64,000 bases of DNA. It comes from a virus. Shown here piece by piece: positions 61,248 through 63,891 of the stretch. The stretch covers positions 11,959-75,958 of IMG/VR virus record IMGVR_UViG_3300048854_000056. One strand, given 5' to 3'. Each line of letters starts with the position of its first letter. Within the stretch, counting starts at the first letter, position 1. The notes beneath the pieces are model-generated. The model was not told the origin of the DNA. It saw nothing but the letters and a program-made list of their open reading frames with translations, and did no database searches. Made by a program: the position numbers and the translations under genes.

Positions 61248-61314
61248 CGCAGAGTGAGTCTACCGGATTGTTTGCCGGTAGACGTAATGCGGGAGTCTGG
61301 TCACAACCCCAGAC
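61248..61314 (+). ncRNA. Twister ribozyme 1 (P5-type permutation)
   Basis: CGCA-GA-GTGA, P1 GTCTACCGG/CCGGTAGAC, TAA, TGCG, GG, P4 GTCTGG/CCAGAC with loop TCACAACC. Confidence 0.85.
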
Positions 61315-61334
61315 GCGCAAATGGAGGCAGGACC

Positions 61335-62186
61335 ATGCGAGTCACCACAGAGGGATACAAGTACGGCAAGATTGAATTCGATTCATGGGGCGAGTTTATC
61401 GACCAAGGTTGCAAGCCTAGTGCTAACCCTAATCGTTCTGAGTCTGAACGATCATCGCGGTCTAGTGACAGTAGTTGGACTGGGACTAAGACATTCAATG
61501 ATGCAGTCAAGCTGGCCCGTGACGGTTGGGCCGAGGGTGAGGCAATCGTTCAAAGTATGTCCGCGTCCATCACAAACAAGGTAACGGATCTGGTGGAACG
61601 GGAACACGTCACCTATGACGTGGAAGGCATCGGCCTAGATGTAGCGGCATACGTCAACGGTGAGCCGGAATGCTGGCAACGATTCGAGACGGACACAACT
61701 GAGTCCATCGGAACCAAGCATGTAAGACTTGTGTTCAATTGCTCCGTATCAGGATCAGTTAGCACAGACACGATTCTGGCCAAAGGTGCAGCGGTTGTGT
61801 CACTAGTGCAAGCATTAGAGTTTGCTGGCATCCGCGTAGAAGTAACCGCGCTGGCACGGTGCGGAACTAATAACTACGGTAGTGGCAGACACGAGATAAG
61901 GGTTCCCGTCAAAGCGGCTGACCAAGATTTAGATATGGGTCGCATTACCTTCGCATTAGCTCACCCGTCCATGATCCGCAGAATGGGCTTCGCGGTGACT
62001 GAGTCCACACCTGAATCCTGCAAAGTAATGGCCATCCGACCGGGAACCACGGATGATGAGGGCGATATCTATGTGGACTCCTCACGCTACTCAGACAGCC
62101 AGTGGCGCAGCTCTGAAACTGCTACACAGTGGATTCTGGATCGCCTGAAAGAACAGGGCATCCACCTAGTAACGGAAACCAAGTAA
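61335..62186 (+). CDS. vWA-like partner of the AAA+ ATPase
   Basis: LVFNCSVSGS degenerate MIDAS-like motif, LEFAGIRVEV, FALAHPSMIRR; ATG 61335 after GGAGG. Confidence 0.65.
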   Translation: MRVTTEGYKYGKIEFDSWGEFIDQGCKPSANPNRSESERSSRSSDSSWTGTKTFNDAVKLARDGWAEGEAIVQSMSASITNKVTDLVEREHVTYDVEGIGLDVAAYVNGEPECWQRFETDTTESIGTKHVRLVFNCSVSGSVSTDTILAKGAAVVSLVQALEFAGIRVEVTALARCGTNNYGSGRHEIRVPVKAADQDLDMGRITFALAHPSMIRRMGFAVTESTPESCKVMAIRPGTTDDEGDIYVDSSRYSDSQWRSSETATQWILDRLKEQGIHLVTETK

Positions 62187-62193
62187 CCACAAC

Positions 62194-62268
62194 GCAGAGG
62201 ACACCACGAATACACGGGGCAAACAATCCCCGTGCGGTGTAATGCCCGGTCACGTTCCAAGGCGTGAC
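62194..62268 (+). ncRNA. Twister ribozyme 2
   Basis: GCA-GA-GGA, P1 CACC/GGTG with inner hairpin, TAA, TGC, CC, P4 GTCACG/CGTGAC with loop TTCCAAGG. Confidence 0.72.
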
Positions 62269-62315
62269 GCAAAGCATTCCTAGTCGCTACTAGGAAATCC
62301 ATCACTGGAGATCAG

Positions 62316-62465
62316 GTGAAGCACGAACAAGCCTTGCACCATGCCCAAACTCACCAATACGCGCACTCCCTTATTCGTAGTCGTAGGGTGTGGCAAAAGG
62401 TTGCCATTGCCCCCGGCGTAGCAGCATGGGGTTATGCATACGAAAACGGCAAGTTCACCCTGTAA
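62316..62465 (+). CDS. Small hypothetical protein
   Basis: 49 aa, GTG after GGAGA. Confidence 0.5.
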   Translation: MKHEQALHHAQTHQYAHSLIRSRRVWQKVAIAPGVAAWGYAYENGKFTL

Positions 62466-62483
62466 ACACCTGGGAGTAACCCC

Positions 62484-62612
62484 GTGAACTACGCAGGAGT
62501 CGCAGTCATTCTCGCAGTCATGTTCTACCCAGCACTTGCGGCACTGACAAAGAAACTCGTCTGTGACGCCATCTACCAACCGACGCCGACTAGGTCAGTG
62601 AGTAACTACTAG
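62484..62612 (+). CDS. Small membrane protein
   Basis: 42 aa, GGGAG RBS, one TM helix. Confidence 0.45.
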   Translation: MNYAGVAVILAVMFYPALAALTKKLVCDAIYQPTPTRSVSNY

Positions 62613-62622
62613 GAAAACGACC

Positions 62623-62796
62623 ATGCAGAGCAACCCACGCCGTGTAACTTCTAGCCGCTCCAAGATGTTCTGTGGGCGGACACCGTTTTGCCCGTGCTGC
62701 ACAGTGGTGCGTGATAACGGTGAGGTAAATAAGCGTAAACGTAACCGACGCATGACCAAGTACAAGACACTGCGGACTCACCGCACAGGGAGATAG
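62623..62796 (+). CDS. Small basic protein
   Basis: 57 aa, AGGA RBS, CPCC motif. Confidence 0.4.
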   Translation: MQSNPRRVTSSRSKMFCGRTPFCPCCTVVRDNGEVNKRKRNRRMTKYKTLRTHRTGR

Positions 62797-62889
62797 TATG
62801 CAGAAGCCGAAATACATGCCCGTGGCCTGGGAGTTGGCCAAGTCACACCCTAAGCTCTACGCCATCCTGAAAGACAAGTTGAAATAGGA

Positions 62890-63027
62890 TGCTCTACACA
62901 CTGACCATCGTGCATGGCGGAGAAACAAGACACCTTACATTCGACTGCTGCCAAACGGCGGAGGCGGCAAGAATTAGAGCCGTCATCAACGGCGCAACTG
63001 CAACAAAGCTAACCAGCCTGTTATAAG
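62890..63027 (+). CDS. Small hypothetical protein
   Basis: 45 aa in a tightly packed string. Confidence 0.35.
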
Positions 63028-63057
63028 CCCCAACCCATCCCATAACTGGAGAAAACC

Positions 63058-63384
63058 ATGCAAGCATCACCGCTGACGCGAGTCTTCGCGCCCAAGACGA
63101 TCCCTGCTGTAAACATCACCCTGCCCAGAACAAAAGGGGCAGACGAAACCAAGCCACCCACGCCCAACTTTGGAGCGTTCATCGACAAGTTCACGACGGA
63201 GAAGGGCATCGTTTTTACCTCGTACATCGACACAGAAGAACAGGTTAGGACCCGAGCGTCCAAGGTCACGAGCGCACTGAGCGCAACGTTCCCCGGTTGG
63301 GACGTGGTCGAGAACATCGAAGATGCAACGTACAAGCCACCGTTCGCTGTGTCGTGGGACTTCAAACCTAAGAAGGCGGCGTGA
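63058..63384 (+). CDS. Hypothetical early protein
   Basis: 108 aa, GGAGA RBS. Confidence 0.65.
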   Translation: MQASPLTRVFAPKTIPAVNITLPRTKGADETKPPTPNFGAFIDKFTTEKGIVFTSYIDTEEQVRTRASKVTSALSATFPGWDVVENIEDATYKPPFAVSWDFKPKKAA

Positions 63385-63602
63385 TGCTTGAGATCGAGTA
63401 TGGTCCCGAACGATATGCGGTCGAGTACCAGCTAAAGGGCGAGAACAAGTGGCGCAGGACTATGGAACACCCTTACGACACACTCGCACTTCAAGAGCAA
63501 GTGCTCAGACAGAATCCCACAGTAAGCGTTGTTAGGTCAGTGGCTTTACGTGAGGAACTGAGGGTTATAAAAATCAAAACCGAGATCAAAAGAGGGAAGT
63601 GA
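63381..63602 (+). CDS. Hypothetical protein
   Basis: 73 aa coupled to previous gene. Confidence 0.55.
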   Translation: MMLEIEYGPERYAVEYQLKGENKWRRTMEHPYDTLALQEQVLRQNPTVSVVRSVALREELRVIKIKTEIKRGK

Positions 63603-63603
63603 T

Positions 63604-63771
63604 ATGGACAAAGACACCTTCACTAGTCACTACATCGTTACCTTCCTAGCCTCCTACGCGGCTGAGACGTATGACTTCAACGCATTGCATGGGCTCAAGG
63701 CCCAGCACCCGGTTGAGGACGCCATCTTCCTAGCCAACAAAGCGTGGGAGGAGCTTCAAAAACACAAATAG
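63604..63771 (+). CDS. Small hypothetical protein
   Basis: 55 aa, GAGGG RBS. Confidence 0.5.
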   Translation: MDKDTFTSHYIVTFLASYAAETYDFNALHGLKAQHPVEDAIFLANKAWEELQKHK

Positions 63772-63830
63772 CGAGGTTAGTCACAGCGAACGACGCAAAT
63801 AAACAAACGGAGGTGCAACATGCGCTAAAT

Positions 63831-63891
63831 CGCAGAGTGACCCCACAGAGAAGCGTGGGGCGTAATGCGGCGACACGGTCACAAGCCCGTG
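63831..63891 (+). ncRNA. Twister ribozyme 3
   Basis: CGCA-GA-GTGA, P1 CCCCAC/GTGGGG, TAA, TGCG, GC, P4 CACGG/CCGTG with loop TCACAAGC. Confidence 0.82.

What the first reader, a model, noticed from the sequence alone, without database searches (positions are those of the whole stretch)
61248..63891. Three divergent twister-type self-cleaving ribozymes punctuate the early operon
Seen: three intergenic elements at 61248-61314, 62194-62268 and 63831-63891 share the order P2(3' strand)-GA-T1-P1 hairpin-TAA-P2(5' strand)-T2-P4 hairpin with an 8-nt loop. Both pseudoknots covary: T1 is GTGA/TCAC in copies 1 and 3 and GGA/TCC in copy 2; T2 is GG/CC, CC/GG and GC/GC. P4 stems also differ (GTCTGG/CCAGAC, GTCACG/CGTGAC, CACGG/CCGTG). 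Established: this matches the twister core (UAA cleavage loop, catalytic G in GA, NNNN-AA-NN L4), in the P5-type circular permutation. Predicted cuts are 61285/6, 62240/1 and 63863/4. Inference: the phage may cut its early polycistronic mRNA into separately decaying pieces with 5'-OH ends without host RNases, much as T7 uses RNase III. Copy 1 separates the AAA and vWA genes and copy 2 follows vWA, so vWA would be excised as its own unit. A clear P5 closing stem was not found; copy 2 has a shorter P2 and copy 3 has an extra base at the P1 junction.
Basis: partly seen in the sequence, partly recalled or inferred. Interest (0 to 1): 0.88.

Follow-up and report, generated by a model that had tools for sequence, protein, structure and literature searches.

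The report
Three twister ribozymes in phage operon
Three copies of a known self-cutting RNA, the type-P5 twister ribozyme, sit between genes of a soil phage related to the cultured Tunturiibacter phage Tunturi_4 and probably cut one long message into gene-sized pieces; this is a known arrangement, not a new kind of element.

Summary
Rfam's Twister-P5 model (RF02684, cut-off 37.6 bits) hits 61248-61312 (51.2 bits) and 63831-63890 (49.8). It hits 62193-62266 only below threshold (27.5). Copy 2 is still genuine. P1, P2, P4 and both pseudoknots form. Its 3' half matches a relative's copy that passes the cut-off (40.6 bits). Five related phage loci carry a twister with the same rare T1 (GGA/UCC) at the same junction.

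The window is part of an 87.7-kb virus record with terminal repeats, related to Tunturiibacter phage Tunturi_4. Tunturi_4 has four unannotated twisters above the cut-off at syntenic junctions. The layout AAA_5 ATPase | twister | DUF7192 (weakly vWA-like) | twister recurs in this clade.

The function, cutting the polycistronic mRNA, is inferred only. The same reading was published for clustered hammerheads in prophages, and this scan has reported twister-punctuated phage operons in other genomes.

One oddity remains unexplained. The P1 loops of copies 1 and 2 are perfect 8-nt complements, and no other multi-copy locus shows this.

Verdict: new members of a known kind, modest interest.

The parts
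61248..61314 (+). Twister ribozyme 1 (type P5), predicted cut between U61285 and A61286. P2 is 61248-61251 with 61288-61291. GA is 61252-61253. T1 is GUG 61254-61256 with CAC 61302-61304. P1 is a 9-bp hairpin with loop AUUGUUUG at 61267-61274. T2 is GG 61292-61293 with CC 61307-61308. P4 is 61295-61300 with 61309-61314.
   Evidence: Rfam RF02684 51.2 bits, E 9.9e-08; element parse and P1 fold; TAA position
62193..62268 (+). Twister ribozyme 2 (type P5, divergent), predicted cut between U62240 and A62241. P2 has 3 bp. T1 is GGA/UCC and T2 is CC/GG. P4 is GUCACG/CGUGAC. P1 has two tiers with loop CAAACAAU at 62220-62227.
   Evidence: Rfam 27.5 bits, below the 37.6 cut-off. All helices and both pseudoknots pair. 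Its 3' half matches L136 5854-5925, which scores 40.6 bits. The five relatives' copies at the same junction (L003, L129, L130, L133, L136) are above the cut-off and carry the same T1.
63831..63891 (+). Twister ribozyme 3 (type P5), predicted cut between U63863 and A63864. T1 is GUG/CAC, T2 is GC/GC and P4 is CACGG/CCGUG.
   Evidence: Rfam RF02684 49.8 bits, E 2.3e-07; parse; syntenic copy after gp81 in Tunturi_4
59965..61218 (+). AAA_5 (MoxR/CobS/NorQ-like) ATPase gene, upstream of ribozyme 1
   Evidence: Pfam AAA_5 E 4.5e-18; PHROG 249 'porphyrin biosynthesis' E 3e-50; 69% identical to Tunturi_4 gp88
61335..62186 (+). DUF7192 gene, flanked by ribozymes 1 and 2; probably a divergent vWA/MIDAS-like partner of the ATPase
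   Evidence: Pfam DUF7192 E 2.6e-39; AF2 model pLDDT 83; best PDB matches are NorD VWA bound to NorQ (E 8e-4, TM about 0.3) and Rea1 MIDAS; AFDB matches include CobT VWA
62316..63771 (+). Block of about eight small + strand ORFs between ribozymes 2 and 3; it would be released as one multi-gene piece
   Evidence: ORF list; no Pfam or PHROG matches; gp83 and gp81 homologues of Tunturi_4
62277..62296 (+). Hairpin without a T-run just after ribozyme 2, before the ribosome-binding site of the next gene
   Evidence: Sequence; fold of the downstream leader; a similar hairpin follows the Tunturi_4 copy at the same junction
63903..63917 (+). Palindrome CCGCATAGTGTGCGG just after ribozyme 3, before the ribosome-binding site of the gene that starts at 63945
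   Evidence: it belongs to a 20-copy genome-wide palindrome family

Best explanation
The three elements are genuine type-P5 twister self-cleaving ribozymes transcribed as part of a + strand polycistronic mRNA. Each should fold as it is made and cut itself between the U and the first A of its UAA. The upstream piece then ends in the stable P1 hairpin with a 2',3'-cyclic phosphate. The downstream piece begins with a 5'-OH, the P4 hairpin and then the next gene's ribosome-binding site. The operon would split into an AAA ATPase message, a DUF7192 (vWA-like) message, a message for about eight small genes, and the genes beyond. This uncouples their stability and translation without a host nuclease. 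Shown here: family membership, structure, conservation and placement. Inferred: cleavage in vivo and its effect on expression.
For: Two copies exceed Rfam's curated threshold, and the third matches the same model over its full length. In 19 distinct twisters of this phage clade T1 and T2 pair fully in 19 of 19, with three T1 types and six T2 types; none of 5,000 shuffles reaches that count, and the shuffle mean is about 9. Copies at equivalent junctions keep the core but differ in P1 and P4 through compensating changes. Tunturi_4 has four hits above threshold at syntenic junctions. The AAA|twister|DUF7192|twister layout recurs in L129, L130 and L136 (L129's copies are identical to Tunturi_4's, so probably the same phage), and one of the two sites is present in L131 and L133. 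All copies lie on the coding strand between a stop codon and the next ribosome-binding site. At the clamp|methyltransferase junction Tunturi_4 has a twister, whereas this phage has an intrinsic-terminator-like hairpin (L008 2703-2731 plus TTTTT). That fits a role in forming RNA ends. At least 119 IMG/VR contigs carry the motif, some with 3 to 6 copies spaced one gene apart. Clustered hammerheads in prophages were shown to cleave in vitro and were read the same way (PMC3088659).
Against: No experimental or read-level evidence of cleavage exists for these copies. The two metatranscriptome runs give only short low-depth contigs, and none spans a cut site; that outcome is expected by chance about one time in four (my estimate from the contig lengths). 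Copy 2 is 10 bits under the Rfam threshold, has only a 3-bp P2 and has a 7-nt internal loop in P1, so it may cut slowly or not at all. Whether cleavage stabilises or destabilises the pieces is unknown. In E. coli reporter constructs, twister cleavage in a 5' UTR had little effect on expression (PMC5052635). Relatives with overlapping AAA and DUF7192 genes (L132, L137) do without ribozymes.
Confidence: 0.75

Rival explanations
1. Copies 1 and 3 are active ribozymes, but copy 2 is a decaying, catalytically dead relic. In that case the DUF7192 gene is not released as its own unit and stays joined to the downstream small genes.
For: Copy 2 scores 27.5 bits against a cut-off of 37.6. It has lost the fourth P2 pair, and its basal P1 helix has only 4 bp below a 7-nt internal loop.
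Against: All conserved core nucleotides are present. T2 changed from GC/GC to CC/GG and P4 from GACUGG/CCAGUC to GUCACG/CGUGAC by compensating changes relative to Tunturi_4. A matching 3' half in L136 passes the threshold. Eight of 104 viral twister-P5 instances also parse with a 3-bp P2.
Confidence: 0.12
2. The ribozymes are active, but they persist mainly as boundary or junk elements that spread with gene cassettes. They would give no regulatory benefit to the phage.
For: The motif is very common and multi-copy in viral contigs. Adjacent copies in other phages often share the same T1, as recent duplicates would. Presence varies between relatives.
Against: Each junction keeps its own lineage across phages whose flanking protein is only 45-51% identical; the copy after DUF7192 always has T1 GGA/UCC. 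Compensatory changes show long-term selection on the fold. Placement is always on the sense strand between stop codon and ribosome-binding site.
Confidence: 0.08
3. Besides cutting, ribozymes 1 and 2 interact through their fully complementary P1 loops in a kissing complex. This would couple the two cleavages or keep the AAA and DUF7192 messages tethered after cutting.
For: The loops AUUGUUUG (61267-61274) and CAAACAAU (62220-62227) are perfect complements; with the closing pairs the match is 12 nt. No other of 57 within-locus loop pairs exceeds 3 nt, and 20,000 between-locus pairs reach at most 6 nt.
Against: The complementarity is not conserved in any relative. The loop duplex is AU-rich and weak (-5.6 kcal/mol). 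A small loop inversion or chance could produce it. No close relatives were found to test covariation.
Confidence: 0.1
4. The matches are chance or non-functional look-alikes.
For: None beyond the sub-threshold score of copy 2.
Against: E-values are 1e-7 in a 64-kb window. Hits above threshold lie at equivalent junctions in five other phage loci. The pseudoknots covary.
Confidence: 0.01

Closest known systems
Type-P5 twister ribozyme (Rfam RF02684, clan CL00120; twister class of Roth et al. 2014, as summarised in PMC5408937)
   Same: Same circular permutation and the same conserved core (GCAGAG, UAAUGC, G-U..CAA..C). P1, P2 and P4 are present, as are the double pseudoknot T1/T2 and the U-A cleavage dinucleotide. 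Two copies exceed the curated score.
   Different: T1 is GUG/CAC or GGA/UCC rather than the consensus GgG/CcC. T2 varies (GG/CC, CC/GG). Copy 2 has a 3-bp P2 and a long two-tier P1 and falls below the cut-off. All these variants recur among viral twister-P5 copies.
Clustered hammerhead ribozymes flanking genes in prophages (Perreault et al. 2011, PMC3088659)
   Same: Several self-cleaving ribozymes lie in intergenic spacers and flank single genes or short gene blocks of phage operons. The proposed role is the same: processing long phage transcripts into gene-length mRNAs.
   Different: The ribozyme class differs (hammerhead versus twister). Those were shown to cleave in vitro and in E. coli, whereas these are untested.
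RNase III processing sites between phage T7 early genes (textbook knowledge, not tested here)
   Same: Both punctuate a polycistronic phage mRNA at intergenic structured sites and leave hairpins at the new ends.
   Different: T7 relies on a host protein nuclease that leaves 5'-phosphate and 3'-OH ends. Here the RNA would cut itself and leave 5'-OH and 2',3'-cyclic phosphate ends.
Twister-punctuated phage operons reported earlier in this scan (e1-3390987, e1-3411725, e1-4118178)
   Same: Several type-P5 twisters lie between small genes of uncultured phages, with the same interpretation.
   Different: This clade has a cultured member with a known host (Tunturi_4 on Tunturiibacter empetritectus). 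It has a conserved pair of sites around an AAA/DUF7192 gene pair. This genome also has complementary P1 loops.

Membership tests
Twister ribozyme, type P5 (RF02684) | Covariance-model score at or above Rfam's gathering score (37.6 bits): copies 1 and 3 | tested here: met
   51.2 and 49.8 bits with full-length model matches
Twister ribozyme, type P5 (RF02684) | Covariance-model score at or above Rfam's gathering score: copy 2 | tested here: not met
   27.5 bits; E 0.12 for the window and 5.7e-04 locally. A relative's copy with a matching 3' half scores 40.6, so the shortfall probably comes from P1 and the missing P2 pair.
Twister ribozyme | [quoted passage not shown] | tested here: met
   All three copies form P1 hairpins (-11 to -16 kcal/mol), a P2 of 4, 3 and 4 bp, and a P4 of 5-6 bp including the G-C extension
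Twister ribozyme | Two pseudoknots, T1 (L1 with L4) and T2 (L2 with L4), supported by covariation | tested here: met
   T1 and T2 pair fully in all 3 window copies and in 19 of 19 clade copies, with 3 and 6 pair types; 0 of 5,000 shuffles reach this. In 104 viral copies, 101 pair at T1 and 100 at T2.
Twister ribozyme | Strongly conserved nucleotides in L1 and L4, and the conserved A 3' of the scissile bond (PMC5408937) | tested here: met
   GCAGAG, UAAUGC and G-U-NNC-AA-NN-C are present in all three copies
Twister ribozyme | Termini in P5 (circular permutation type P5) | tested here: met
   The best clan member is Twister-P5, and the element order is P2-GA-T1-P1-UAA-P2-T2-P4. No P5 helix forms from the flanks, and the Rfam model has none either.
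Twister ribozyme | Site-specific self-cleavage that gives 2',3'-cyclic phosphate and 5'-OH ends | not testable with these tools
   Only low-depth metatranscriptome contigs were available, and they cannot show RNA ends

The most novel reading that the evidence does not exclude
The two ribozymes that flank the DUF7192 (vWA-like) gene form a kissing complex through their perfectly complementary 8-nt P1 loops. After self-cleavage, the 3' hairpin of the AAA ATPase message would stay paired with the 3' hairpin of the message for its partner protein, or the two cleavages would be coupled. That would be an RNA-level way to keep the messages of two subunits together after the operon is cut.
Probability: 0.1. 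Interest if true: 0.6.

Novelty: new member of a known kind. Interest (0 to 1): 0.3.

Why it matters
The biological role of genomically encoded twister ribozymes in bacteria and phages is still called elusive (PMC6765202). This clade offers a tractable case. The cultured lytic phage Tunturi_4 and its host Tunturiibacter empetritectus M8UP27 carry four twisters above threshold. The published description of Tunturi_4 does not mention them (PMC11924767), and its annotation of this region lists only protein-coding genes. Two of them bracket a conserved AAA/vWA-like gene pair. Cleavage, mRNA ends and the effect of ribozyme-dead mutations could therefore be measured in a real infection. In itself the finding adds members to a known family in a known kind of neighbourhood.

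Tried and rejected
1. T1 'orthogonality'. I asked whether neighbouring ribozymes differ in T1 to avoid cross-folding. This is rejected as a general rule: in 20 multi-copy loci, adjacent copies share T1 in 17 of 37 pairs, against 11.6 expected.

2. A 'product-trap' helix. GCAUU after P4 could pair with the AAUGC at the new 5' end. It is present in Tunturi_4 copies 1-3 and, offset, in window copy 2. It occurs in only 3 of 98 viral twister-P5 copies, so it is not a family feature.

3. RNA evidence for cleavage. Two metatranscriptome runs hold parts of the region only as short contigs of depth 2-13. None spans a cut site, but that is expected by chance about one time in four, and DNA carry-over cannot be excluded. 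No conclusion follows.

4. RtcB ligase as a route to circular RNA. Neither this phage nor Tunturi_4 encodes it. Host genomes were not checked.

5. Close relatives for covariation of the P1 loops. Peptide-pattern searches and exact DNA patterns in viral and metagenome contigs found nothing.

6. A custom covariance model. It was not built, because MAFFT misaligned P1 and the copy-2 type 5' ends. Element parsing and pair counts were done by script instead.

7. Other ribozyme classes. A permissive Rfam scan of the window, the rest of the genome and the relatives found no hammerhead, pistol, hatchet or twister-sister.
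Full report
**What is there**

The finding's three coordinates each hold an intergenic + strand element with the order P2-GA-T1-P1 hairpin-UAA-P2-T2-P4 hairpin. 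Rfam's cmscan at curated thresholds reports exactly two hits in the 64-kb window. Both are Twister-P5 (RF02684, gathering score 37.6): 61248-61312 at 51.2 bits (E 9.9e-08) and 63831-63890 at 49.8 bits (E 2.3e-07), each matching the full model. A permissive scan adds 62193-62266 at 27.5 bits (E 0.12 for the window, 5.7e-04 for the 301-nt spacer) and nothing from any other ribozyme class.

The window is bases 11959-75958 of an 87,715-bp IMG/VR virus record with direct terminal repeats. Rfam scans of the rest of the genome and a relaxed descriptor scan of both strands find no fourth copy.

**Anatomy**

A script parsed every copy.

| Copy | P2 | T1 | T2 | P1 | P4 |
|---|---|---|---|---|---|
| 1 | CGCA/UGCG | GUG/CAC | GG/CC | 9 bp | GUCUGG/CCAGAC |
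| 2 | GCA/UGC (3 bp) | GGA/UCC | CC/GG | two tiers | GUCACG/CGUGAC |
| 3 | CGCA/UGCG | GUG/CAC | GC/GC | 6 bp | CACGG/CCGUG |

The invariant GCAGAG, UAAUGC and G-U-NNC-AA-NN-C are present in all three copies.

The review PMC5408937 defines twisters by four features:
- stems P1, P2 and P4;
- pseudoknots T1 and T2;
- a U-A cleavage site.

All of these sequence-level features are met. The same review says T1 has three Watson-Crick pairs and that the first L4 U pairs within L4.

**Is copy 2 real?**

The nearest cultured relative is Tunturiibacter phage Tunturi_4 (PP885687.1, about 72% nucleotide identity over the matching parts). It has four Twister-P5 hits above threshold (62.2, 54.9, 49.6 and 48.2 bits). 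They lie after gp88 (AAA), gp87 (DUF7192), gp81 and gp79 (sliding clamp). tblastn shows that these junctions are syntenic with the window.

Homologues of the DUF7192 protein led to ten more phage contigs. Rfam at curated thresholds finds 15 further twisters in five of them. The copy just after DUF7192 has the rare T1 GGA/UCC in all six loci (window, Tunturi_4, L129, L130, L133, L136). L129's three copies are identical to Tunturi_4's, so it is probably the same phage and not independent. L136's copy has the same 3' half as window copy 2 (UGC, T2 CC/GG, P4 GUCACG/CGUGAC) and scores 40.6 bits. Compared with Tunturi_4, copy 2 changed T2 and two P4 pairs by compensating substitutions. Copy 2's low score probably reflects its long, interrupted P1 and the lost fourth P2 pair, not decay of the core. 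A 3-bp P2 also occurs in 8 of 104 viral twister-P5 copies.

**More than chance**

In 19 distinct clade copies, T1 and T2 pair fully in 19 of 19. There are three T1 types and six T2 types. None of 5,000 shuffles reaches that count, and the shuffle mean is about 9. In 104 copies parsed from IMG/VR contigs, T1 pairs in 101 and T2 in 100, with many pair types.

**Context**

All genes here are on the + strand.
- **Ribozyme 1** lies 30 nt after the stop of an AAA_5 ATPase (Pfam E 4.5e-18; PHROG 'porphyrin biosynthesis', that is CobS-like). It ends 20 nt before the ATG of a DUF7192 protein.
- **Ribozyme 2** starts 7 nt after that gene's stop.
- **Ribozyme 3** follows a block of about eight small ORFs.

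An AlphaFold model of DUF7192 (pLDDT 83) weakly matches the NorD VWA domain bound to the AAA+ NorQ, the Rea1 MIDAS domain and CobT VWA domains.

The layout AAA|twister|DUF7192|twister recurs in Tunturi_4, L129, L130 and L136. L131 has only the first site and L133 only the second. L132 and L137, where the two genes overlap, have neither, and L134, L135 and L138 have none above threshold.

At the clamp|methyltransferase junction Tunturi_4 and L129 have a twister. This phage instead has a 12-bp hairpin followed by TTTTT, which looks like an intrinsic terminator. A ribozyme and a terminator occupying the same junction fits a role in making RNA ends.

**Mechanism (inferred)**

Self-cleavage would leave the upstream message ending in the P1 hairpin plus GU with a 2',3'-cyclic phosphate. 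The downstream message would start with a 5'-OH AAUGC, the P4 hairpin and then the ribosome-binding site. Both ends would be poor substrates for exonucleases and for 5'-end-dependent decay. That last point is general knowledge and was not tested here.

No read-level evidence exists. Two soil metatranscriptomes hold parts of the region only as short low-depth contigs, and none spans a cut. I estimate from the contig lengths that this happens by chance about one time in four.

**What is known**

Perreault et al. 2011 (PMC3088659) described several hammerheads flanking genes in prophages. They showed cleavage of the polycistronic RNAs in vitro and proposed processing into gene-length mRNAs. The review PMC6765202 extends the idea to twisters and notes their association with phage genes. 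A pattern scan found the twister-P5 motif in at least 119 IMG/VR contigs, some with 3 to 6 copies spaced one gene apart. Earlier reports of this scan describe the same arrangement in other genomes. The Tunturi paper does not mention ribozymes (PMC11924767).

These are therefore new members of a known kind. Their value is that a cultured phage-host pair carries them.

**An unexplained extra**

The P1 loops of copies 1 and 2 (AUUGUUUG at 61267-61274 and CAAACAAU at 62220-62227) are perfect complements. With the closing pairs the match is 12 nt. Among 57 within-locus pairs of twister P1 loops, no other pair exceeds 3 nt. In 20,000 between-locus pairs the longest match is 6 nt. In Tunturi_4, L130 and L136 the loop of the copy after DUF7192 is AAAACAAG (AAAAACAG in L133), with no partner nearby. 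The window's two deviations from that consensus are exactly the ones that complete the complementarity with loop 1.

This could be a kissing contact, the remnant of a small loop inversion, or chance. No close relatives were found to test it.

Two other ideas were tested and rejected: T1 orthogonality between neighbouring ribozymes, and a post-cleavage trap helix.

Noticed in passing
window 61267-61274 and 62220-62227: The P1 terminal loops of ribozymes 1 and 2 are perfect 8-nt reverse complements (12 nt with the closing GG/CC). This is unique among 57 within-locus twister loop pairs and is not conserved in relatives.
   Followed up: partly
window 57250-59965: A 2.7-kb stretch upstream of the AAA gene has no ORF above 107 aa. 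It starts after a strong terminator-like hairpin (57221-57249). It holds several copies of the genome-wide palindrome and a 21-nt inverted repeat (59860-59880 / 59907-59927). The deepest metatranscriptome contigs lie here (59153-59816). Tunturi_4 and other relatives have a similar ORF-poor gap, and 59553-59966 is 69% identical to L136. It may be a leader or a non-coding RNA region.
   Followed up: partly
whole genome, e.g. window 4076, 12996, 15580, 28681, 33383, 41059, 47273, 57320, 58487, 59840, 63904: The 13-bp palindrome [C/T]GCA[C/T]A[C/G]T[G/A]TGC[G/A] occurs 20 times in the 87.7-kb genome. With up to 3 mismatches there are 57 matches in the window against 22 expected. Many copies are intergenic, one lies just after ribozyme 3, and CTGCACACTGTGCAG follows two Tunturi_4 ribozymes. 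It could be an operator, a promoter element or an RNA hairpin.
   Followed up: partly
L008 2703-2731 (own genome, 78602-78630, beyond the window's end): An intrinsic-terminator-like hairpin plus TTTTT lies between the clamp and DNA methyltransferase genes, exactly where Tunturi_4 and L129 carry a fourth twister.
   Followed up: yes
L003 7858-7919, L130 5839-5898, L136 5854-5925, L133 4378-4443: The P1 loop of the ribozyme after DUF7192 is conserved in sequence (AAAACAAG; AAAAACAG in L133) although the P1 stems differ. This hints at a sequence-specific role for that loop.
   Followed up: no
window 63039-63052, 63924-63937, 62298-62311: A conserved translation-start context, CCCATAACTGGAGA (CCATCACTGGAGA after ribozyme 2), lies before several genes. 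There are 5 matches with up to 2 mismatches against 0.5 expected. It is also present in Tunturi_4.
   Followed up: no
window 63821-63829: A mini-ORF, ATG CGC TAA, with a GGAGG ribosome-binding site lies immediately upstream of ribozyme 3. It may be chance.
   Followed up: no
L131 3442-3500: A further Twister-P5 match at 37.3 bits, just under the 37.6 cut-off, lies upstream of the AAA gene of that relative.
   Followed up: no
L130 6453-7385 and L135 8368-9282: Two relatives carry a second DUF7192 paralogue a few genes downstream of the first.
   Followed up: no
L027 (IMGVR_UViG_3300012948_000209) 2681-5399: Six twister-P5-like motifs at spacings of about 420-590 nt, roughly one per small gene, lie in a 5.4-kb viral contig.
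   Followed up: partly
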